The notes under the pieces: generated by a model
The model's database searches: none
What the model saw: only the letters and a program-made list of their open reading frames with translations
Told to the model about the DNA's origin: nothing
Translations under genes and position numbers: made by a program
Shown: in pieces, positions 2,636 through 12,877 of the stretch
Layout of the letters: each line of letters begins with the position of its first letter
Position numbering within the stretch: the stretch's first letter is position 1
Source of the DNA: Raphidiopsis brookii D9
GTDB taxonomy: Bacteria > Cyanobacteriota > Cyanobacteriia > Cyanobacteriales > Nostocaceae
Assembly: GCA_000175855.1 (NCBI GenBank)
Contig: ACYB01000035.1
Coordinates: forward strand, 420,001-452,000
Length of the DNA: 32,000 bases
Reading direction: 5' to 3'

Positions 2636-3682
<1,047 letters not shown>

Positions 3683-3924
3683 TTAGATTTAATTGTAGCA
3701 AGAAGTGCATCAAATGTAAAGCCTTACTATATGGGAAGCGAGCTTCCATCCCATAATTTCCGATCATTCATGTAAAATTATTGACTAAATACAATAAAAA
3801 TGATATTGTTCCTAATGTACCTTTTAGGTGTTTTTAATAGTTTTGTTTAAATCTTCATTTTTCAAGGTAGAAAATAAAAGATAATTAGTCCTATTATGGT
3901 TGATTTAAATACCTCATTGGCTGA

Positions 3925-4719
3925 TTGGACAATCATAAAATTATGCTAGGAGATGATATTTTGCGTAGTTGTAGTATGGTTATTTTTCGACGCTTGATTA
4001 CATCTGGGCTGATTGGTTTCCTGGTAAGCAGCTGTGCTGACGCAGCCAAATCTTCTACGGAATATACAAAACAAATTGTTCAGGAAAATAACGTAGCACG
4101 ACTGATGGCACAGGTTCAGGATAGCCAAAAAGTCTCAAATCTATTGAGTCAGGGCAATGGTTTCCTAGACAGTGGACGCTATGAAGAAGCACTTCAGCTC
4201 TATAACCGGGCAATTGAAATTGAAAAGGATAGCGTACCGTCATGGGTAAATAGGGGAAATGCCCTACTCTCCCTAAAACGCTACCAGGAAGCATTGGAAT
4301 CTTATAACCAGGCGATCGCCCTTCGTCCTAACAAAAATGAAGCCTGGTACAATCGAGGTAATGCCCTATCAGCATTAGGCCGTTACGAAGAAGCAATAAG
4401 GTCTTATAATGAGTCCATAGTGATTGACCCAAATAAATTTGAGGCATGGATAAACAAGGGAATTGCCTTGACAAAACTACAACGTTACCAAGAAGGTTTA
4501 GCATCTTACAACCAAGCAATTAGCATCAACCCAAATTTTCCCACCGCATATTATAATAAAGCATGTAATTATGCTTTACAGAAGCAGGTAAACCTAGCAG
4601 TGGAGTCATTAGCTAAAGCTATTAAGATAGACGGTCAAAAATACACTCAATTGGCACGGGTAGATAAAGACTTTGCTAAGATTAGCGATAACAGGGACTT
4701 TCAAGAATTACTGAAATAA
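3925..4719 (+). CDS. TPR-repeat protein, probably a lipoprotein
   Basis: The longest ORF starts at TTG 3925. ATG 3943 or ATG 3976 are more likely starts. The 3976 start gives MVIFRRLITSGLIGFLVSSC, with an n-region, an h-region and a lipobox-like VSSC. About five 34-aa TPR units follow (AxxxYNxAIxxxPxxxxAWxNRGxAL). Confidence 0.8.
   Translation: MDNHKIMLGDDILRSCSMVIFRRLITSGLIGFLVSSCADAAKSSTEYTKQIVQENNVARLMAQVQDSQKVSNLLSQGNGFLDSGRYEEALQLYNRAIEIEKDSVPSWVNRGNALLSLKRYQEALESYNQAIALRPNKNEAWYNRGNALSALGRYEEAIRSYNESIVIDPNKFEAWINKGIALTKLQRYQEGLASYNQAISINPNFPTAYYNKACNYALQKQVNLAVESLAKAIKIDGQKYTQLARVDKDFAKISDNRDFQELLK
4634..4709 (+). repeat. Left copy of the 76-bp direct repeat; it forms the functional 3' end of the TPR gene
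   Basis: gtcaaaaatacactcaattggcacGggtagataaagactttgctaagattagcgataacagggaCtttcaAgaatt matches 12878-12953 at 73 of 76 positions. Confidence 0.9.
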
Positions 4720-4918
4720 AGGCTAGAGTGAAAACCTACCTACCCTGCTTATTAACTGGTTTGGTTGAGTCAGTTCGATCTATAATAGATAAAGGGATGC
4801 GGGAGAGAAGTCAAAGCGCTAGGAGCACTCAACCAGTTAGGTTTACAGACGTCCTTAGTGCGACACTGGTTATGTAGGTTTTTTTCTCCTAACAGTTTAT
4901 TAAAGGTTCAGTCATCAT

Positions 4919-6352
4919 CTAGCTATCAACAATTGTATCTGGTAACTCCTCTTCTACAAGACGCAGATGGGGATAAAAATAGCAAATAAAAGTAAAAAGG
5001 ATGCTAAATAGTCCCATGATGACAAACATTAAACCAATACCGCGACCATGGCCAATACCAATTATTTCTCCGATGGTGTTTGCTGCTGGTCCGTCAGCTT
5101 GCATAAATGGTTCAAATAGTCGATCAGCTAGTGGTCCTGCTAGCAGAAAAGAAAGGGGTAGAAAACCTTGAGTAACTGCTATGCGGAAGGCAAAGACTTT
5201 TCCTTGCACTTCTGGAGCAACTTTCTTTTGATAAATTACTTGGATTGCACCATTAACAATGGGGACCATAAAAAATATAAAGAAGTCGGAGATGGTAAAC
5301 AGAATTGGGTTAGGACGTAACCCGGCTAAAATATAGAATATACCTAAGAAAAACATTGAGATAAAGATGAGGTTCATTTGGCGCTTTGGTCCTCCCCAGA
5401 TGCTGATGATAAAACTGCTAACTAACATTCCAGAGCTTGCTATGGAAGAGATTGTACCTAGTGCTTCTGTGGAAGCAAAGGAAAGGACTAGAGGTGTGGT
5501 GAGAGCTTCAGCACCACCAATAAGAAAGTTGGTGATTGCAACAAAAACCACCAAGCCAATTAGTCCAGGTCTCTCGATAAAATAATGCCATCCAAAGGAT
5601 AATTCTTGCCAGAATGAAGAGAATAAACCAGCTTCCTCGGTTTCAGTTTCTTTGGTTTTAACTTCACGGAAATTCACCACTAATAAGCAAAGCAAGGCAA
5701 AACACAAAGTAGATAAATCAATTAGAACTACTCCGGGAATTTGAACATTCACTAAGAGTATAGTTGCTACCACTGGCGAGAGAATCTCTGCAACAGCTAA
5801 TCTAATTTGCGTCATGGAACTGGCGCGACCCAGTTGTTCTTTTGGGACTAATAATGTGGTAGCTGAAGAATAAGCGAGGGCTTGAAATGCACTAAAGCTA
5901 GAATTGAAGGCACTAATTAGACACAGAGTCCACACTTCTAGGTGGTTATTCATAAATAACCAGGCAATGGTTAAGGTACACAAACCAGCACAGAAGTCAC
6001 TAATAATCATAATCCAGCGTCGGGGAAAGCGGTCAACAACTACTCCCGCAATGGGAGAGATAACAATCGTAGGTAAAGTCGTTGATAGAATTAGGAGGGT
6101 GAATTGGGTAGCTGAATTAGTATGCTGGTAAAGCCAAATACTTAAAGCAAAACTGGTCATGCGAGAGCCAACCAGAGATAATACTTGACTAATCCAGATG
6201 AGGATAAAAACGCTCATGCTGGGAGCTTTCTCTGTTTCCTGATTGGAGAATTCTCCAGTCCACTTAAATAAAGATGATGCAAAACTGGGTTTTTGTTTTA
6301 ATTCTGTTGAGTCTTTATCTAACATAGCAACAGTTATTACTGTATATTTCAA
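4919..6352 (-). CDS. MFS transporter (DHA3 / EntS-like efflux type), co-oriented with and 53 bp downstream of the NRPS
   Basis: 477-aa ORF that is hydrophobic throughout, with about 12 predicted helices. FILIWISQVLSLVGSRMTSFALSIWLY resembles the TM1 signature of NRPS-associated MFS_3 exporters, and VVDRFPRRWIMI resembles the loop 2-3 motif. The start is uncertain: TTG 6352, ATG 6325 or ATG 6217. Confidence 0.8.
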   Translation of the reverse strand: MKYTVITVAMLDKDSTELKQKPSFASSLFKWTGEFSNQETEKAPSMSVFILIWISQVLSLVGSRMTSFALSIWLYQHTNSATQFTLLILSTTLPTIVISPIAGVVVDRFPRRWIMIISDFCAGLCTLTIAWLFMNNHLEVWTLCLISAFNSSFSAFQALAYSSATTLLVPKEQLGRASSMTQIRLAVAEILSPVVATILLVNVQIPGVVLIDLSTLCFALLCLLVVNFREVKTKETETEEAGLFSSFWQELSFGWHYFIERPGLIGLVVFVAITNFLIGGAEALTTPLVLSFASTEALGTISSIASSGMLVSSFIISIWGGPKRQMNLIFISMFFLGIFYILAGLRPNPILFTISDFFIFFMVPIVNGAIQVIYQKKVAPEVQGKVFAFRIAVTQGFLPLSFLLAGPLADRLFEPFMQADGPAANTIGEIIGIGHGRGIGLMFVIMGLFSILFTFICYFYPHLRLVEEELPDTIVDS

Positions 6353-6405
6353 TATTTTCAGTTAGCAAGGCAATTTGGCAATTAAAAACAGCTGTGGAAT
6401 TGTAA

Positions 6406-9400
6406 TTATCCAATTGGGCTGTTTGGATGTTGAACAAGTTTTTGGAGAATTTCTTGGTAATAACTAAACATAAACTCGATGGCATCATCTGTAAATAGCT
6501 CCCTGCTGTAGAAAACCTTAATTTCCATGGTGGGATTATTTACTGAAGGTGAGGAAACATAAATCTCTAAAGGAATTTCTTCATCCCACAAGCTGCGATC
6601 GCGCTTAATTGATACAAATTCAAAATCCAACATCCGGTTGTGCCAATTTTGCGGAGGTAACATAGTTAGGGATGTAGAGATATTCAGTGGTTGTTTACTG
6701 GTAACAGTGTCAATGACTGTTTGACAAGCAATTTCTTTATTGTTGATTGCTTCCATTAGGGTTTGTTGGACTTGTTGTAGAAGAGTAAGTCCGGTCTCTT
6801 CAGATGAGAAATGAGAGTGCAAAATTACATCTTTGATGAAGCAACCAAGCATTGTTTCAGTTTTCACTGAACTACGATTACCAACTGTTGTGATCACTAA
6901 AATATCGTCTTTCCCACTATAATTAAACAAAAGTATATTCACAGCAGTGAGGATAATCACAAAGATAGTAACTTTTTGCTCCAGGCTGAAGGCTTGAATT
7001 GATCTAACCATACTGACTGGTAAAACTATGGAATAAACAGATGCACTGCTACTCACCTGTGGTGGAATGTTAGAAACATTATGAGATATTGGTGAGGTAT
7101 TGGTTAATTTCTCTACCCAATAAGCCAACTGCTTTTCTATTACCTTTTCATTAAAGCACTGATGTTGCCAGAGGGTAAATCGGCATAATGACCATCCATC
7201 CGTAATGATATGGTGCATGTTTATTGTTAACCAATATTCCTTTTGATTTACTTGCAATAACTTTGTCTTAATCAGAGGAAGTGAACCTAGATCAAAATGA
7301 TGCTCGTATTCCAACGCAGCGAGTCTCTCAGCTTCAGATGTTCTTTTTGTATTAGGCAAGTTTTGTAAGTCTATAATCTCTAGTGGTATAGTCAGAAGTG
7401 GAGTAATTACTTGTACAGGTTGACCTTCTACTAGAGTAAAAGCCGTGCGTAGTATTTCATGACGACGAATTATTTCATTGAAGCTAGACTCCAACACAGT
7501 TGCAGAAAGAGAGCCTGTAAAACGTAAAGTAACAAAGCTATTGTAAGCGTAATTGTCAGGAGCTAATTGCTGTGAATGCCATATAGACTCCTGTGCAAAA
7601 GACAGTGGGATATATGTGTTTCGTACTTGAGGGATAAGAGGTGGTAAGGTGTCAAACGTCATGCTACCTGCACTCTGCTGCTCTACCTCCAGCTGATGAA
7701 CATTGATTACTTGGCTAAGTTGAACTATGGTGGGTGCTTTAAATAGAGAACGCAAGGGAAGTTCGAGGGACAAACTTTCCCGAATTCGAGATATTACAGA
7801 TGTTGCTAATAAAGAATGTCCTCCCAATTCGAAAAAGTTATCATAAATCCCGACTTTTTCCAGACCTAAGACGTTGGCGATAATATGGGCAATGGTTTCT
7901 TCTGTGGGATTTCTGGGAGCTACAAAGACTGTTTGAGGATTGTCTACTATGGGTATAGGTAGGGCGCGACGGTCTATTTTTCCGTTGGGATTCAGGGGAA
8001 AGGCGTTGAGGATAACAAATGCCAAGGGAATCATATATTCGGGCAAACGTTCTTTGAGAAACTGACGCAACTCACTACTGCTAAGGGTTAAACTTTCACT
8101 AACAATATAAGCAGTGAGATACTTATTGCCTGGATTATCTTCGCGGACAATTACTACTACCTGCTTCACTTGGGGATGTTGGGTTAATACTGTCTCAATT
8201 TCTCCTAATTCTATGCGGAATCCACGAATTTTAACTTGGTGGTCGACGCGTCCGATAAATTCAATGTTTCCATCGGGTAAAAAGCGTGCCAAATCCCCTG
8301 TTTTATAAAGTCGATCATTTGCTACAAAAGGATTAGGAAGAAATCGCTCAGATGTCAATTCGGGACGATTTAAGTAACCTATTGCTAAACCTGTACCTCC
8401 AAGGTAGAGTTCTCCAGACACACCTATGGGAACCGGTTGCAGATGGCGATCTAGAATGTAAACTTGGGTATTGGCGATCGCCCGACCAATGGGAACTGTT
8501 TTTGCTTTTGGTTCTATTTGCTGGATATAATAACAGGTAGAAATGGTTGTATTTTCAGTAGGTCCGTAAGCATGCAACAATTTTTGAGGACCATCTACTG
8601 CTAACAAGTGTCTCACCCACCGAGTATCAACAGCTTCACCACCAAATAATAAGTAGTGTAAATGTCGAAATGCCATCGGTACTTGTTGCACCATTTGGTT
8701 AAATAGTGCGGTCGTGATCATCAAGATGGTAATACCCTCATTTTGTAAGCTAGTGGCAAAATCTCGTGGTGATAGTATGGTTTCTCTATCGAAAATTGCT
8801 ACTTTTGCACCATTGAGTAATGCTCCCCAAATTTCACAGGTAGCAACGTCAAAGGAATTATTAGAAACTTGTGCAATTACATCTGTAGGTTGCAAGGTTA
8901 TATAGTCAGTATTGACTACTAATCGCACCACCCCGCAATGAGGAACCATCACACCTTTAGGTTGACCCGTTGACCCTGATGTGTAAATAACATAAGCCAA
9001 ATTATCTGGGGTAGTATCGCAGTTTAAGTTCTGTTGGTTCTTTTGGGCAATGACGGACCAGTCCCGGTCTAAACAAATCTGCTCAACATCAGTCAGTTTT
9101 CCCCCTAGCTGCTGCTCTGTCAAAATCAAAAAGGCTTTTGCATCCTGCAGCATAAATGCCAGGCGATCGCTCGGATAGGTGGGATCTAATGGTAAATAAG
9201 CACCTCCAGCTTTCAGAATCCCTAGCATGGCGATGATGATTTTAGGCGATCGCTCTAAATAAATTCCCACCAAAGTTTGTGCACTAACACCCAGAAACTG
9301 CAAATAGTGAGCTAGTTGATTAGCTCGATTATTTAACTCCCGATAGGTAACTTGTTGATTTTCCCATTGAACAGCGATCGCATTTGGTGTCCTTTCTACT

Positions 9401-12400
9401 TGTTGCTCAAATAATTGATGAATACATTGGTGAGGATAATCAGTTTGCGTGTTATTCCATTCCACAAGTAGCTGATGTTTTTGCGATGCTGAGAGTAATG
9501 GTAATTTTCCCACCTGTTCATCGGGATTAGTAACAATAGCCTCCACCAAAGTTTGAAAATTATCTACCATCCGGGCAATGGTTGTAGCGTCAAACAAATT
9601 GGCGTTATATTCAAAGGCTCCTATGAGTTCCAAATTTGCTTCTTGCATCGACAGGGTTAAATCAAACGTCGCTCCTGCTGTGGGTCTATTTAATTCAATT
9701 TGGGTTACATTCAAACCTGGTAAGTTGAATTTTTCCTGGGGAGAATTTTGTAATACAAACATTACCTGAAACAGGGGACTCAGATTTTTTTGCCGTTTGG
9801 GTTGTAGAGCTTCAACTAGTATATCAAAAGGTAACTCTTGGTGAACATAACCATCAAGAGAAACCTGTCGCACCTGGGATAATAGTTGTTTAAAGGTGGG
9901 ATTGTTTTCTAAGCGAGTACGTAAAACTAAAGTGTTGACAAAAAAACCAATTAATGACTCGAGTGCTTGACGATTGCGGTTAGTAATAGGGGAGCCAATA
10001 ATAATATCTTCTTGGCCAGTGTAACGATAAAGAAAGGTAACAAAAGCCGCTTGCAGAGTCATAAATAGGGAAGTACCCGACTTCTGACTTAATATTTTCA
10101 GTTTGTTAGTCAGGTGATTACCCAATCTAAACCGGTGGATACTACCGTGAAATGTTTCAATAGTCGAACGGGGGTAATCTGTTGGTAATTCTGTGATTGG
10201 TGGAGCATCTGCTAACTGTTTTTTCCAATAGCTTATCTGGGTATTAATAACATCATTTTGCAACCCTTGACGTTGCCAGTAAGCATAATCTGCATACTGA
10301 ACTGGCAAGTTTGCCAGGGGAGAATTGGCATATAAACTCGACAATTCTTGGAAGAAAATTGCTACTGACCAAGCATCGGAGATTATGTGGTGCATGGTGA
10401 CTAGCAAAATATGGGAATTTGATTCCAGGCGAATCAGTTTTACTCTTAGTAGAGGGGCTTGGCTTAAATCAAAAGCTTCTGTATATTCAGTGGTAATCAA
10501 CCGTTGTAATTCTGCCTCTCTTGCAACTTCTGTTAGGGTTTGTAAATCTACTAATGGTAAGGTAAATGGTAAAGTTTCTGCAATAAATTGCACTGGTTTT
10601 CCTTCTGATATACCAAAAGAAGTACGCAAAGTTTCGTGACGTTGAATAATTGACTGCACTGCTTGTTGAAGTGCCATTAAATTCAGGGAACCAACTAACC
10701 GTAAAGCCCTAGTAATATTGTAAGCTGCATTTGCTCCTTCCATTTGGTCAACAATCCAAAATCTCTGTTGAATCAAAGATAAAGGTGATTCTGCAGTTCG
10801 GGAAACTGGCTGTAAAACTGAGAGGGAATTAGTGGGATGAAAATCATCCCGAAAAGTTGTAACTTTTTCACTTAAACTAGCTATGGTTGGGGCTTCAAAT
10901 AAAATGGTGATGGATAGCTCCAAAGATAGAGCTTCACGCAATCTTGATATAACTAAACTGGCAAGTAGAGAATGTCCCCCCAATTCTAAAAAGTTGTCAT
11001 AAATGCCCACTTTCTCTAGTCCTAAAACTTCTGCCCAAATGTTAGCTATTAGTTCTTCTTGGGGGTTACGGGGTGCAACAAAGTTACCAATTGTAGCAGA
11101 TAGATTTGGTGCGGGTAAATTATTCCTGTCTAACTTTCCGTTGGGTAATACTGGCAGTTTTTCTATCAACACAAAGGCATTAGGAATCATATAATCTGGT
11201 AATTTATGCTCTATAAAATTCCGAATTTCTGCCAAATCTAAGGTTTGAGTGTTAGGCACAATATAGGCAACCAATCGCTGATCTCCCGGTATATCCTCTC
11301 GAAGGCTAATTGCACCTTCTTTAACTGAGGGATGTAGTTTTAATATGGCTTCGATTTCTTCCAGTTCTACGCGCATTCCTCGGATATTTGCCTGAAAGTC
11401 AATCCGACCAAGAATTTCTAAATTACCATCTTGCGAGTGGCGAGCTATATCCCCTGTCTTGAAAAGTTTTTGCTGAGGATTAAAGGGATTATTAATAAAT
11501 TTTTCGGCATTGGCTTGGGCGCGGTTTAAATAACCACGTGCTAACGTACCACCAGCTATATGTAGTTCTCCGGATTCTCCATTTTTCACGGGTTCCAATT
11601 GGGAGTTGAGGACGTAAACCTGCTGCATGTCTTGGAGGGGATTACCAACAGGAACATATCCTTGTTCAGTATCGCAGTTTTCAGGAATGGGATAAAAAGC
11701 ATTACCAATACTTTCCGTTTGACCCAAGATATTAAAAAATTGAGGTGGGGTTTGAAATAGGTTACGTAATTTCTTAATTAGCTGATAAGGTAGTAACTCC
11801 CCGCCAAATATCAGGTATTTTAGCTTTGATTCCCCTATAGCTCTTGTATATTTTTTGTCTAAACTTTCCAAAGCCATAAGTCCATAACGCCACACTGAGG
11901 GCACACCATCACAGATAGTGATTTCTTGTGTTTCAATTAGTTCAAATAACCTAAGAGGATCTCTGGTTTGTTCACGTGTAGCAATAACAATGGCTGCACC
12001 TTGGGATAAGGGTAGGAATAGTTGTCTGACTGAAGCAGTAAATGAGAAAGATGCTATATGCAGGTAAATATCTTGGTTATCAACTGGGATTATGTTAGTT
12101 ATACCCTGAAGATAATTCACAATACTGGCATGGGGCATTTGTACTCCTTTTGGCTTACCAGTAGAGCCAGAAGTATATATTAAGTAGGCCAGATTCTCTG
12201 AGGTAACACTACAGCTGGGACTATCTTGACTTTGTTGCTCAATTTTTTCCCATTCCGCATCTAAACATAAGACTGTGGCCTTGATAACAGGTAGTGCTTC
12301 TAACCACTGACTTTCAGTTAAAACTACCTTTGGACTGGCATCCTCTAGCATAAATGCTAACCTTTCCTGGGGATAAGCAGGGTCCAAAGGAACGTAAGCA

Positions 12401-12645
12401 CCACCCGCTTTGAGGATACCCATAATTCCAATAACTATTTCTATAGAACGTGTTACACAAAGACCTACAAACACCTCTGGTCCGACACCAATTGATTGCA
12501 AATAATGTGCTAGCTGATTGGCTTTACAGTTTAATTCTCCATAGGTCAACTGCTTATTTTCAAAGATTATTGCTACTGCATCAGGCGCTTTTTTTACTTG
12601 CTGCATAAACAGCTCGTTAATAGACTTGTTTTGAGAATATATCAT
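6406..12645 (-). CDS. Bimodular non-ribosomal peptide synthetase, domain order A-T-C-A-T-C (no TE, R or E domain)
   Basis: 2079 aa with an ATG start (cat at 12643-12645). Two sets of adenylation core motifs are present ([16 protein letters not shown] / [16 protein letters not shown], FKTGD / YKTGD, PNGKLDR / PNGKIDR). There are two carrier motifs (LGGHSL, twice) and two condensation His motifs ([20 protein letters not shown]). Confidence 0.93.
   Translation of the reverse strand: [2079 protein letters not shown]
6409..7614 (-). other. Terminal condensation-like domain C2, aa ~1678-2079, shortened and partly degenerate
   Basis: [19 protein letters not shown] and [10 protein letters not shown] (Met1810 codon at 7216-7218) are intact. 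The segment between the His motif and the WQ...LAYW motif is 29 aa versus 52 aa in C1. The C5-equivalent reads [13 protein letters not shown] rather than IGxFVNTxxxR. Confidence 0.7.
7708..7917 (-). other. Carrier (T/PCP) domain 2, aa ~1577-1646
   Basis: [20 protein letters not shown]. The Ser1611 codon is at 7813-7815. Confidence 0.85.
7960..9423 (-). other. NRPS adenylation domain A2 (canonical amino-acid type), aa ~1075-1562
   Basis: [24 protein letters not shown] (Asp present), [32 protein letters not shown] and PNGKIDR. Confidence 0.85.
9511..10794 (-). other. Condensation domain C1, aa ~618-1045
   Basis: C1 is SLIQQRFW, C2 is [9 protein letters not shown], C3 is [10 protein letters not shown] (His752 codon at 10390-10392) and C5 is [13 protein letters not shown]. 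No epimerisation-type motifs are present. Confidence 0.8.
10861..11073 (-). other. Carrier (T/PCP) domain 1, aa ~525-595
   Basis: [20 protein letters not shown]. The phosphopantetheine-attachment Ser559 codon is at 10969-10971. Confidence 0.85.
11116..12618 (-). other. NRPS adenylation domain A1 (starter, non-canonical), aa ~10-510
   Basis: A3 is [16 protein letters not shown]. The A4 region is [12 protein letters not shown], with Thr203 (codon 12037-12039) where Asp235 normally sits. A5 is NILGQTE (11713-11724) instead of NxYGPTE. A7 is FKTGD, A8 is [20 protein letters not shown] and A10 is PNGKLDR. Confidence 0.8.
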
Positions 12646-12877
12646 AACTCTAATACCTTAGCCAAAAAAGGGTATCAAAAAGCAGGGATGACTTACTTAA
12701 CTCTACAAACTAACAGCAGTTTTATTTCTGTACCAAACAAATAGCTCCAGATACCAGTTCCTAAACCCGTGGCTGTAGTAATAATTATTACTCCCACAAG
12801 TAACTCAACCGGGTGGGTTCGATATACAGTCAATGGTGTGATTACTTCAGCAGAGTGGTGCACCTTTAAGATGCAGC

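What the first reader, a model, noticed from the sequence alone, without database searches (positions are those of the whole stretch)
11713..12045. The starter adenylation domain lacks the alpha-amino-binding Asp235 and has GQTE in place of YGPTE
In A1 the A4 region reads IASFSFTASVRQ. The motif-aligned position of Asp235 (FDxSVxE in GrsA-type domains) is Thr203 (codon 12037-12039), and none of the neighbouring residues (S, F, T, A) is acidic. The terminal Glu of that motif is Gln. The A5 core is NILGQTE (11713-11724) instead of NxYGPTE. The second A domain of the same protein is canonical (SFDVATCE, HAYGPTE), so this is not a general drift of the protein. Asp235 is established as the residue that salt-bridges the substrate alpha-amino group. 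Its absence is typical of A domains that load 2-oxo, 2-hydroxy, aryl or other non-amino acids. The chain is therefore probably initiated with a non-amino-acid carboxylate.
Basis: partly seen in the sequence, partly recalled or inferred. Interest (0 to 1): 0.7.

Follow-up and report, generated by a model that had tools for sequence, protein, structure and literature searches.

The report
Orphan starter adenylation domain, charged pocket
The first loading domain of this small cyanobacterial peptide synthetase really lacks the residue that normally grips an amino acid's amino group. It belongs to a conserved, uncharacterised clade of chain-starting domains with an arginine/aspartate pair at the pocket floor, so it probably loads an unusual, likely dicarboxylic, acid.

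Summary
In the 2079-aa NRPS (6406-12645, minus strand; A1-T1-C-A2-T2-C), Thr203 aligns without gaps to PheA Asp235. The A5 motif is NILGQTE, and A2 is canonical. This is not drift. 99 of the 117 best database relatives share [S/T]235, R239, Q240, D278, Q325 and G330. None of 847 A domains from 150 large NRPSs has this combination; 98.9% of those keep Asp235. All clade members start chains: about 72 are A-T-TE proteins, and others feed a C, Cy or PKS module. The conventional code is TARDIGIGNK. Its nearest background codes are the Glu/Gln types (DAKDIGIVDK, DAQDIGIVDK). Hallmarks of keto-acid (hydrophobic 235 plus KR), aryl-acid and beta-alanine domains are absent. My best reading is an active starter domain. 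It would load an acid with no ammonium next to the activated carboxyl and with a distal polar or anionic group. Candidates are a 2-oxo/2-hydroxyglutarate-like diacid, or glutamate through its gamma-carboxyl. The substrate is inferred, not shown. Orthologues keep a cassette of FA-hydroxylase, NRPS and MFS. The window's copy is partly eroded. This is a new variant of a known kind, of moderate interest.

The parts
6406..12645 (-). NRPS gene, 2079 aa, domain order A1-T1-C-A2-T2-C(terminal)
   Evidence: ORF list, translation, Pfam
11107..12645 (-). A1, the starter adenylation domain (aa 1-513). All core motifs are intact: A3 YTSGSTGKPKG, A7 FKTGD, A8 GRIDFQANIRG, A10 PNGKLDR.
   Evidence: It retains 125 of 140 clade-conserved positions, and 10 of the 15 deviations are shared with intact orthologues.
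12022..12057 (-). A4 motif IASFSFTASVRQ. Thr203 (12037-12039) = PheA D235; Ala204 = 236; Arg207 (12025-12027) = 239; Gln208 (12022-12024) = E240.
   Evidence: Gapless alignment to the 1AMU sequence and to LgrA
11908..11910 (-). Asp246 = PheA position 278. It is invariant in the clade and partners Arg207 at the pocket floor.
   Evidence: the 239-to-278 spacing is identical to PheA
11713..11733 (-). A5 motif NILGQTE. Ile306 = 322; Leu307 = Y323; Gly308 = 324; Gln309 (11719-11721) = P325; Thr310/Glu311 = T326/E327.
11701..11706 (-). Gly314 and Asn315 = positions 330 and 331 by the conventional gapless count from E327. Gly330 is invariant in the clade.
11134..11136 (-). Lys504 = PheA K517 (A10 catalytic lysine), retained
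10846..11073 (-). T1 carrier domain (GGHSL; Ser559)
9466..10818 (-). C1 condensation domain (HHIISDAWS), ordinary LCL-like
   Evidence: Best PDB sequence hits are Txo2, DhbF C2 and TycC6 C domains, E about 1e-93
7921..9423 (-). A2, a canonical adenylation domain with code DVCMLGATIK (hydrophobic pocket)
7666..7878 (-). T2 carrier domain
6409..7653 (-). Terminal C domain (HHIITDGWS), the presumed release catalyst. It carries a 29-aa in-frame deletion directly after the active-site motif, relative to orthologues.
4919..6352 (-). MFS exporter (MFS_1/MFS_3, EntS-like). It is conserved downstream of the NRPS in all orthologous loci.
12708..12866 (-). 53-aa remnant (pseudogene) of the PF04116 fatty-acid-hydroxylase gene. 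In intact orthologous loci this gene lies immediately upstream of the NRPS (overlapping its start in L003).
   Evidence: tblastn 57% identity, E = 3e-15; intact gene in L003, L014 and L015

Best explanation
A1 is a catalytically competent chain-initiating adenylation domain. It belongs to a distinct, conserved and so far uncharacterised clade, mostly cyanobacterial where named. The clade signature is [S/T]235, [S/A]236, R239, Q240, D278, Q325, G330 and K517.

The pocket has no carboxylate to pair with an alpha-ammonium group. It has an invariant Arg/Asp pair at its floor (Arg207/Asp246), and in the window's sub-clade it is otherwise Glu/Gln-like (code TARDIGIGNK).

I infer that A1 adenylates an acid with no ammonium group next to the activated carboxyl and with a distal anionic, zwitterionic or polar group held by Arg207/Asp246. 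The most likely candidates are a C4-C5 dicarboxylate-type acid (2-oxoglutarate, 2-hydroxyglutarate or glutarate-like) or glutamate bound 'in reverse' and activated at its gamma-carboxyl.

The acyl group is loaded on T1. An ordinary LCL-type C domain then joins it to a hydrophobic amino acid chosen by A2. This residue varies between orthologues (a Leu code in Cylindrospermum). The terminal C domain releases the product and the adjacent MFS pump exports it.

Shown: the residue assignments, the clade conservation, the exclusively initiating position, the intact core motifs and the cassette synteny.

Inferred: the substrate class, the roles of Arg207/Asp246, the release chemistry and export.
For: - Thr203 equals D235 by gapless alignment.
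- 99 of 117 nearest relatives carry S/T235 + R239 + D278 + G330, and 94 of the 99 have Q325 and Q240.
- No domain among 847 background A domains has this combination. D235 is present in 98.9% of them.
- All 99 clade domains are N-terminal, or preceded only by an MbtH fusion or a C-domain stub without HHxxxDG.
- They feed TE, C, Cy or KS partners.
- The nearest background codes to TARDIGIGNK are DAKDIGIVDK and DAQDIGIVDK, with 5 of 8 interior identities. Only 6 of 814 codes reach this level. From memory, DAKDLGVVDK is the Glu code and DAQDLGVVDK the Gln code.
- Orthologues keep the A1 code (TARDVGIG[N/H]K) while the A2 code changes.
- No precursor-supply genes are conserved beside any member, which suggests a common primary metabolite.
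- Core motifs are intact and the AF2 model is a canonical A-domain fold.
- There is precedent for starter modules that activate a side-chain carboxyl: SulI with gamma-D-Glu (PMC11298585) and ACVS module 1 with delta-Aad (PMC8788816).
Against: - No member of the clade has a biochemically assigned substrate in the literature I could search. The only mention is an in-silico note of Ser235 in Pseudanabaena galeata (PMC11356792).
- The pair could simply salt-bridge to each other.
- The wider SSRD-type clade resembles Glu/Gln codes only weakly, at 2-3 of 8 positions.
- The link between R239 and side-chain-carboxyl activation rests on my memory of the McyE, McyB2 and ACVS codes. I could not verify it here.
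- In the background set R239 always co-occurs with D235.
- The downstream C domain is an ordinary LCL type, which says nothing special about the donor.
Confidence: 0.5

Rival explanations
1. A1 loads an aliphatic or aromatic 2-oxo or 2-hydroxy acid, or an aryl acid. This would give an N-acyl or depsipeptide-type start.
For: Loss of Asp235 is the classical sign of such domains (PMC4558948, PMC13643306). A published in-silico note suggested a hydroxy acid for a Ser235 cyanobacterial starter domain (PMC11356792). A polar Thr/Ser at 235 and Gln at 325 could hydrogen-bond a 2-OH or 2-oxo group (inference).
Against: Keto-acid domains carry a hydrophobic residue at 235 and a partner KR. A1 has Thr, there is no KR in the protein, and A8-A9 spacing is normal at 58 residues. 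Aryl-acid domains have Asn235 (my recall). An invariant Arg/Asp pair at the pocket floor is hard to reconcile with a hydrophobic side chain. By sequence and fold, A1 sits among canonical amino-acid A domains, at about 45% identity to cyanobacterial ones.
Confidence: 0.15
2. Arg207 and Asp246 form a salt bridge with each other that floors a shortened pocket. The substrate would then be a small or medium neutral acid such as glycolate, glycerate, lactate or a short acyl group.
For: Positions 239 and 278 are neighbours at the bottom of the PheA pocket (established structural knowledge, Conti 1997 / Stachelhaus 1999). The A5 variant GQTE recalls the YGQTE/WQTE motifs of medium-chain and acetyl-CoA synthetases (my recall). 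About 72 of the 99 clade members are A-T-TE proteins, and the three I inspected lie in glycan loci where small acyl decorations are plausible.
Against: The residues nearest C-beta (236 S/A, 301 S/G, 330 G) are all small, so the pocket is not closed near the top. In the Glu/Gln-type background codes (recalled Glu and Gln specificities) the same D278 accompanies K239 or Q239, which I take to contact the ligand.
Confidence: 0.15
3. A1 still activates an ordinary alpha-amino acid. Backbone carbonyls plus Thr203 and Gln309 would hold the amine.
For: Overall similarity is strong to amino-acid A domains (LgrA, ApnA, McyB). The downstream C domain is LCL-type. Some clade members have MbtH partners.
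Against: Asp235 is kept in 838 of 847 background domains. The clade never occurs in an elongation module, where an amine nucleophile would be required. Six pocket and motif positions change together, clade-wide.
Confidence: 0.1
4. The window's NRPS is a decaying locus and A1's odd residues have no current function.
For: The upstream FA-hydroxylase gene is reduced to a 53-aa remnant. The terminal C domain has lost 29 aa next to its active site. The L003 orthologue is split by an IS element and the L013 orthologue is broken into three ORFs.
Against: The 6.2-kb ORF is uninterrupted and all A1 core motifs are intact. The unusual residues are ancestral to the clade, not window-specific. Only 5 conservative window-specific changes fall at 140 clade-conserved positions.
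Confidence: 0.1

Closest known systems
Glu- and Gln-activating NRPS A domains (codes DAKDLGVVDK / DAQDLGVVDK; DAKDIGIVDK / DAQDIGIVDK in the background set)
   Same: They share A236, D278, I/L299, G301, I/V322 and K517, and have a basic or polar residue at 239. That is 5 of 8 interior positions identical to TARDIGIGNK.
   Different: A1 has Thr instead of Asp235, Arg instead of Lys/Gln239, Gly instead of Val330, Asn instead of Asp331, and Gln instead of Pro325 in A5. It occurs only as a starter.
Starter modules that activate a side-chain carboxyl: SulI (gamma-D-Glu, sulfazecin) and ACVS module 1 (delta-L-alpha-aminoadipate)
   Same: These are initiation modules whose substrate has no amino group next to the activated carboxyl (PMC11298585, PMC8788816). 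ACVS module 1 carries an N-terminal C-domain stub (C*), as do clade members P0041 and P0043. From memory, ACVS A1, McyE and McyB2 have Arg at position 239.
   Different: I could not obtain their sequences or codes here. From memory they retain an acidic residue at 235 (D or E), whereas A1 has Thr and instead has Asp at 278.
2-Keto-acid-activating A domains (KAL: CrpD-M2, HctE/F, CesA/B, StsA, Dol15D)
   Same: Asp235 is absent, and the domain activates an acid without an alpha-amino group.
   Different: KAL domains have a hydrophobic residue at 235 and a partner KR, sit in elongation (C-A-KR-T) modules, and form a separate clade (PMC13643306, PMC4558948). A1 has polar Thr, no KR, a charged pocket floor, and is a starter.
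Module 1 of the Pseudanabaena galeata CCNP1313 dimodular NRPS OA858_03905 (A-T-C-A-T-TE)
   Same: It is a cyanobacterial dimodular NRPS whose starter A domain has Ser235 and retains Lys517. The substrate is unassigned (PMC11356792). It is probably a member of the same clade.
   Different: It ends in a TE rather than a terminal C domain. Its full code was not available to compare, and the report is in silico only.

Membership tests
NRPS adenylation domain (ANL superfamily, amino-acid-type clade) | ANL fold and core motifs A3, A5 (T-E), A7, A8 and A10 Lys517 | tested here: met
   Pfam AMP-binding and AMP-binding_C. PDB sequence hits down to E = 1e-96 per domain. AF2 model with pLDDT 89.7 and Foldseek top hits that are canonical A domains. 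Motifs located.
Canonical alpha-amino-acid-activating A domain | Asp235 to bind the alpha-ammonium group | tested here: not met
   Thr203 is at this position by gapless alignment. 98.9% of 847 background domains have Asp.
2-Keto-acid A domains (KAL) | Hydrophobic residue (Val/Ile/Met) at 235 | tested here: not met
   The residue is Thr203, and Ser in 96 of 99 clade members. The criterion comes from PMC13643306 and PMC4558948.
2-Keto-acid A domains (KAL) | Partner KR domain, inserted between A8 and A9 or following the A domain | tested here: not met
   There is no KR in the protein. A8-A9 spacing is 58 residues against 57 in PheA.
Aryl-acid A domains (DhbE/EntE type) | Asn235 and an aryl-acid code; stand-alone enzyme with an aryl carrier protein (criterion from my own knowledge) | tested here: not met
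   A1 has Thr203, the code is TARDIGIGNK, and the domain is fused to T1-C.
Beta-alanine / beta-amino-acid A domains | Val235-Asp236 (acidic residue shifted by one position) | tested here: not met
   Position 236 is Ala204. Six VD-type codes were recovered in the background set, so the method does detect them.
Fatty acyl-AMP ligases (FAAL) | Insertion of about 20 aa in the N-terminal domain before the hinge (criterion from my own knowledge) | tested here: not met
   Spacing from position 331 to 417 is 86 residues against 85 in PheA. The nearest homologues are NRPS A domains, not FAALs.
Glu/Gln-specific A-domain code | K/Q239 + D278 + [IL]299 + G301 + [IV]322 together with D235 | tested here: inconclusive
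   D246, I279, G281, I306 and A204 match. Arg207 replaces Lys/Gln. D235, V330 and D331 are not matched. A1 works like this pocket in part but is not a member.
Side-chain-carboxyl-activating starter A domains (SulI A1, ACVS A1) | Demonstrated gamma/delta-carboxyl adenylation and iso-peptide linkage in the product | not testable with these tools
   This needs biochemistry or a known product. Reference sequences and codes could not be retrieved.
Uncharacterised [S/T]235-R239-Q240-D278-Q325-G330 starter clade (defined here) | All six signature residues plus an initiating position | tested here: met
   A1 has T203, R207, Q208, D246, Q309 and G314, and lies at the N-terminus. 99 relatives share the signature.

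The most novel reading that the evidence does not exclude
The [S/T]235-R239-D278-Q325 clade would define a new NRPS starter chemistry: direct adenylation of a central-metabolism dicarboxylate (2-oxoglutarate, 2-hydroxyglutarate or succinate type), or of glutamate via its gamma-carboxyl. Cyanobacteria would then use it as a common polar 'cap' on small peptides (this FA-hydroxylase-NRPS-MFS cassette) and on polyketides (A-T plus PKS). Through the abundant stand-alone A-T-TE enzymes, it would also decorate extracellular polysaccharides.
Probability: 0.3. Interest if true: 0.7.

Novelty: new variant of a known kind. Interest (0 to 1): 0.5.

Why it matters
A domains without Asp235 are well known. 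This one, however, represents a large and coherent clade: at least 99 clusters at 90% identity among the 120 best database hits, and mostly cyanobacterial where a source name is given. Its signature matches none of the known non-amino-acid classes, and its substrate is unassigned.

Current predictors are trained on characterised domains and are likely to give no reliable call. Assigning the substrate once would therefore annotate many orphan loci at a stroke: NRPS, PKS-loading and A-T-TE genes, including A-T-TE genes inside exopolysaccharide and sulfated-glycan clusters.

If the substrate is a primary-metabolism diacid or gamma-glutamate, it would add a new starter-unit logic and a compact specificity code for engineering.

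Tried and rejected
- **Representative-library search with A1.** The ranking was dominated by multi-A-domain megasynthetases, so it was useless for delimiting the clade. I reused those 150 proteins as a background set of 847 A domains.
- **First code extraction.** It mis-registered position 331 by one residue. I corrected this by counting gaplessly from E327. The corrected method reproduces the canonical Thr, Ser, Leu, Val, Gly and Orn codes.
- **Search for a canonical sister clade.** The nearest D235 domains are assorted cyanobacterial ones at about 45% identity. This reflects taxonomy, not specificity.
- **Literature.** I found no characterised member. The PARAS supplements held no code tables. 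The nodularin and sulfazecin cluster papers were not held. I therefore could not verify the McyE, McyB2, ACVS or SulI codes, and they are cited as memory only.
- **NCBIfam.** Only generic NRPS and A-domain models hit.
- **AF2 model.** It was of good quality, but coordinates were not exposed, so I could not measure pocket geometry or dock ligands.
- **JGI product name 'aspartate racemase' on many A-T-TE members.** I judged this a legacy EC-transfer artefact, not evidence.
- **P0041 and P0043 as possible elongation-module members.** Rejected: their C domain is only the C-terminal half and lacks HHxxxDG.
- **Exact-sequence look-up of the window NRPS.** Nothing was on record.
Full report
**Anatomy.** The finding lies in a 6.2-kb ORF (6406-12645, minus strand) that encodes a 2079-aa NRPS. 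Pfam gives the order A1-T1-C-A2-T2-C. An EntS-like MFS transporter follows directly downstream (4919-6352). The genes on either side are cyanobacterial housekeeping genes: an R3H/AAA protein, LdpA, signal peptidase, TGT, Dus and others. The closest database fragment is from Cylindrospermopsis raciborskii (92% identity).

**Checking the observation.**
- The A4 motif is IASFSFTASVRQ (aa 197-208) and the A5 motif is NILGQTE (aa 305-311).
- I confirmed my recalled PheA sequence against PDB 1AMU: it is identical over residues 183-526. I used it as the ruler.
- Thr203 falls on Asp235, with identical flanks (S-F-x-A-S-V).
- The A3-to-235 spacing (35 residues) and the 239-to-278 spacing (38 residues) both match PheA, so no alignment shift is possible.
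- HMMER alignments to both LgrA A domains agree.
- Gln208 replaces PheA Glu240, and Gln309 replaces Pro325. A2 is canonical.
- An AF2 model built from a 70-sequence alignment is confident (pLDDT 89.7). It matches canonical A domains, with the ApnA A1 core at rmsd 1.7 A. Coordinates were not exposed, so no distances could be measured.

**Is it more than chance?** I extracted specificity codes with an HMM-anchored procedure. After a register correction at position 331, the procedure reproduces textbook codes such as DFWNIGMVHK, DVWHFSLVDK, DAWFLGNVVK, DILQLGLIWK and DVGEIGSIDK.

In 847 A domains from 150 unrelated large NRPSs:
- 838 have Asp235. The exceptions are mainly VD-type, beta-alanine-like codes.
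- 18 have Arg239, always with Asp235 and never with Asp278.
- 41 have Asp278.
- 3 have Gln325.
- 6 have Gly330 (counted under the first extraction; position 330 is unaffected by the register correction).
- None combines these features.

In contrast, 99 of the 117 A domains extracted from the 120 best hits to A1 carry the following:
- S235 (96) or T235 (3);
- S236 (94) or A236 (5);
- R239 (99) and D278 (99);
- G330 (99) and K517 (98);
- Q240 (94) and Q325 (94).

The finding is therefore one member of a coherent clade, not an isolated oddity. The conventional code of A1 is T203-A204-R207-D246-I279-G281-I306-G314-N315-K504, or TARDIGIGNK.

**Where the clade occurs.** In every clade member the domain is N-terminal. 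The only exceptions are four proteins with an N-terminal MbtH fusion, and two whose 'C domain' is only a C-terminal half without HHxxxDG.
- About 72 are stand-alone A-T-TE proteins of 860-898 aa. The three I looked up lie in glycan loci. One has Wzx, Wzy, Wzc and glycosyltransferases (L001). One has several sulfotransferases plus an MBOAT (L006). One sits next to dTDP-sugar modification genes (L005).
- About 14 are A-T proteins. Those inspected load a modular PKS: KS-AT-DH-KR-ACP-TE in L011, and two PKS modules in L012.
- Others feed a Cy domain followed by A-T-Ox (L009), or a C domain (this locus).

The clade is thus always used to start a chain, where the substrate needs no nucleophile. No dedicated precursor-supply genes recur next to it, which suggests a common metabolite.

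**The orthologous cassette.** A genome scan found orthologues at 77-78% A1 identity in Cylindrospermum sp. NIES-4074, Cylindrospermum sp. FACHB-282 and Microseira wollei NIES-4236. A metagenomic contig carries one at 60%.
- The intact loci share three genes: a PF04116 fatty-acid-hydroxylase-family membrane protein, the NRPS (2144-2152 aa) and the MFS. Their flanks differ.
- The A1 code is constant (TARDVGIG[N/H]K).
- The A2 code varies: DAWFLGNVVK (the canonical Leu code) in Cylindrospermum, DALWLGGVFK in Microseira, DALFLGLSLK in L003, and DVCMLGATIK in the window. The product family therefore has a fixed head group and a variable hydrophobic second residue.
- The window's copy is eroded. Only a 53-aa remnant of the hydroxylase gene survives (12708-12866). 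The terminal C domain has lost 29 aa immediately after HHIITDGWS.
- A1 itself looks conserved. It keeps 125 of 140 clade-conserved positions, and 10 of its 15 deviations are shared with the intact orthologues.

**What it most likely does.** The known classes without Asp235 do not fit.
- Keto-acid (KAL) domains have a hydrophobic residue at 235 and a KR partner, and form a separate clade (PMC13643306, PMC4558948). A1 has Thr, no KR, and normal A8-A9 spacing.
- Aryl-acid domains have Asn235 (my recall).
- Beta-alanine types have V235-D236, as seen in the background set.
- No FAAL-type insertion is present.

The pocket instead resembles Glu/Gln pockets. The nearest background codes to TARDIGIGNK are DAKDIGIVDK and DAQDIGIVDK, with 5 of 8 interior positions identical; only 6 of 814 background codes reach that level. 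From established knowledge (Stachelhaus 1999, recalled), position 239 forms the pocket floor and 278 lies beside it. K239 or Q239 contacts the distal carboxylate or carboxamide of Glu or Gln.

A1 therefore looks like a Glu-type pocket in which the alpha-ammonium anchor has been removed (D235T, with D331N) and Lys has become Arg. The simplest reading is a C4-C5 acid with a distal carboxylate or similar polar group and no alpha-NH3+. Candidates are 2-oxoglutarate, 2-hydroxyglutarate or glutarate. Thr203 and Gln309 might hydrogen-bond a 2-oxo or 2-hydroxy group.

An equally consistent alternative is glutamate bound in reverse and adenylated at its gamma-carboxyl. Arg207 would then hold the alpha-carboxylate and Asp246 the alpha-ammonium. 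Starter modules of that type exist: SulI with gamma-D-Glu (PMC11298585) and ACVS module 1 with delta-aminoadipate, which has a C* stub like P0041 and P0043 (PMC8788816). I recall Arg239 in the McyE, McyB2 and ACVS codes but could not verify this here.

The wider SSRD-type clade has Ser at 236 and 301 and resembles Glu codes less. Its substrate could be shorter or more hydroxylated. The downstream C domain is ordinary LCL-type and is uninformative.

**Limits.**
- No biochemical assignment exists for any member in the searchable literature. The only mention is an in-silico note of a Ser235 starter in Pseudanabaena galeata (PMC11356792).
- Substrate predictors and docking were unavailable.
- I put about 0.5 on the general statement: an active starter domain, a substrate without an alpha-ammonium group, and a distal polar or anionic group. 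I put less on any single compound.

**Verdict.** It is right that the substrate lacks an alpha-amino group at the activated carboxyl and that the chain starts unusually. It is not justified in the classes it named or in excluding an amino acid. It also missed the Arg/Asp pair and the clade context. This is a new variant of a known kind, of moderate interest.

Noticed in passing
window 12708-12866 (-): A 53-aa remnant (57% identity, E = 3e-15) of the PF04116 fatty-acid-hydroxylase-family gene. In orthologous loci (L003, L014, L015) this gene is intact and sits immediately upstream of the NRPS, overlapping its start in L003. Here it is a pseudogene fragment in the 355-bp gap upstream of the NRPS.
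   Followed up: yes
window ~7186 (after aa 1820 of the NRPS; terminal C domain 6409-7653): A 29-aa in-frame deletion immediately after the HHIITDGWS active-site motif, relative to the L003 and L014 orthologues and to the protein's own internal C domain. A second 25-aa difference lies after aa 1943. The release domain may be impaired.
   Followed up: partly
window 7921-9423 (A2); L014, L015, L013, L003: The A2 specificity code differs between orthologues: DVCMLGATIK in the window, DAWFLGNVVK (Leu code) in two Cylindrospermum genomes, DALWLGGVFK in Microseira and DALFLGLSLK in L003. The A1 code is constant. This suggests a product family with a fixed head group and a variable second residue.
   Followed up: partly
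L001 10001-12691; L005 10001-12595; L006 10001-12667: Most clade relatives are stand-alone A-T-TE proteins. The three inspected lie in polysaccharide loci: Wzx/Wzy/Wzc/GTs; several sulfotransferases plus an MBOAT; and dTDP-sugar modification genes. This hints at a Dlt-like acylation of cyanobacterial exopolysaccharide.
   Followed up: partly
L003 12584-14305; L013 9923-16761: The orthologous NRPS in L003 is split by a DDE transposase insertion in its first C domain. The one in Microseira wollei NIES-4236 is broken into three ORFs. Together with the window's lesions, this suggests the cassette is being lost in several lineages.
   Followed up: no
window 11386-11388 (Asn420, A8 motif) and 11725-11727 (Leu307, A5 motif): The window/Cylindrospermum sub-clade has Asn where 93% of the clade has the A8 Lys (QVKIRG becomes QANIRG). 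It has Leu where Tyr323 occurs in 825 of 847 background domains. Both changes are shared with the intact orthologues, so they are sub-clade features rather than decay.
   Followed up: partly
window ~11812-11907 (aa 247-278 of A1): The clade carries an insertion of about 8 residues between code positions 278 and 299 (32 residues against a background median of 24). Its structural role is unknown.
   Followed up: no
L007 7881-10538 (P0041) and 3048-6749: Both NRPS proteins of this small cluster begin with only the C-terminal half of a C domain (no HHxxxDG), reminiscent of the C* stub of ACVS module 1. The cluster also encodes TauD, PhyH, a sulfotransferase, an FGE-sulfatase and an MFS.
   Followed up: no
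P0066, P0067, P0072, P0085, P0093, P0101, P0104, P0106, P0107: A second group of cyanobacterial A-T-TE proteins of similar length has a canonical Asp235 and the code DPW[AG]x G x IDK. It is unassigned here and distinct from the clade under study.
   Followed up: no
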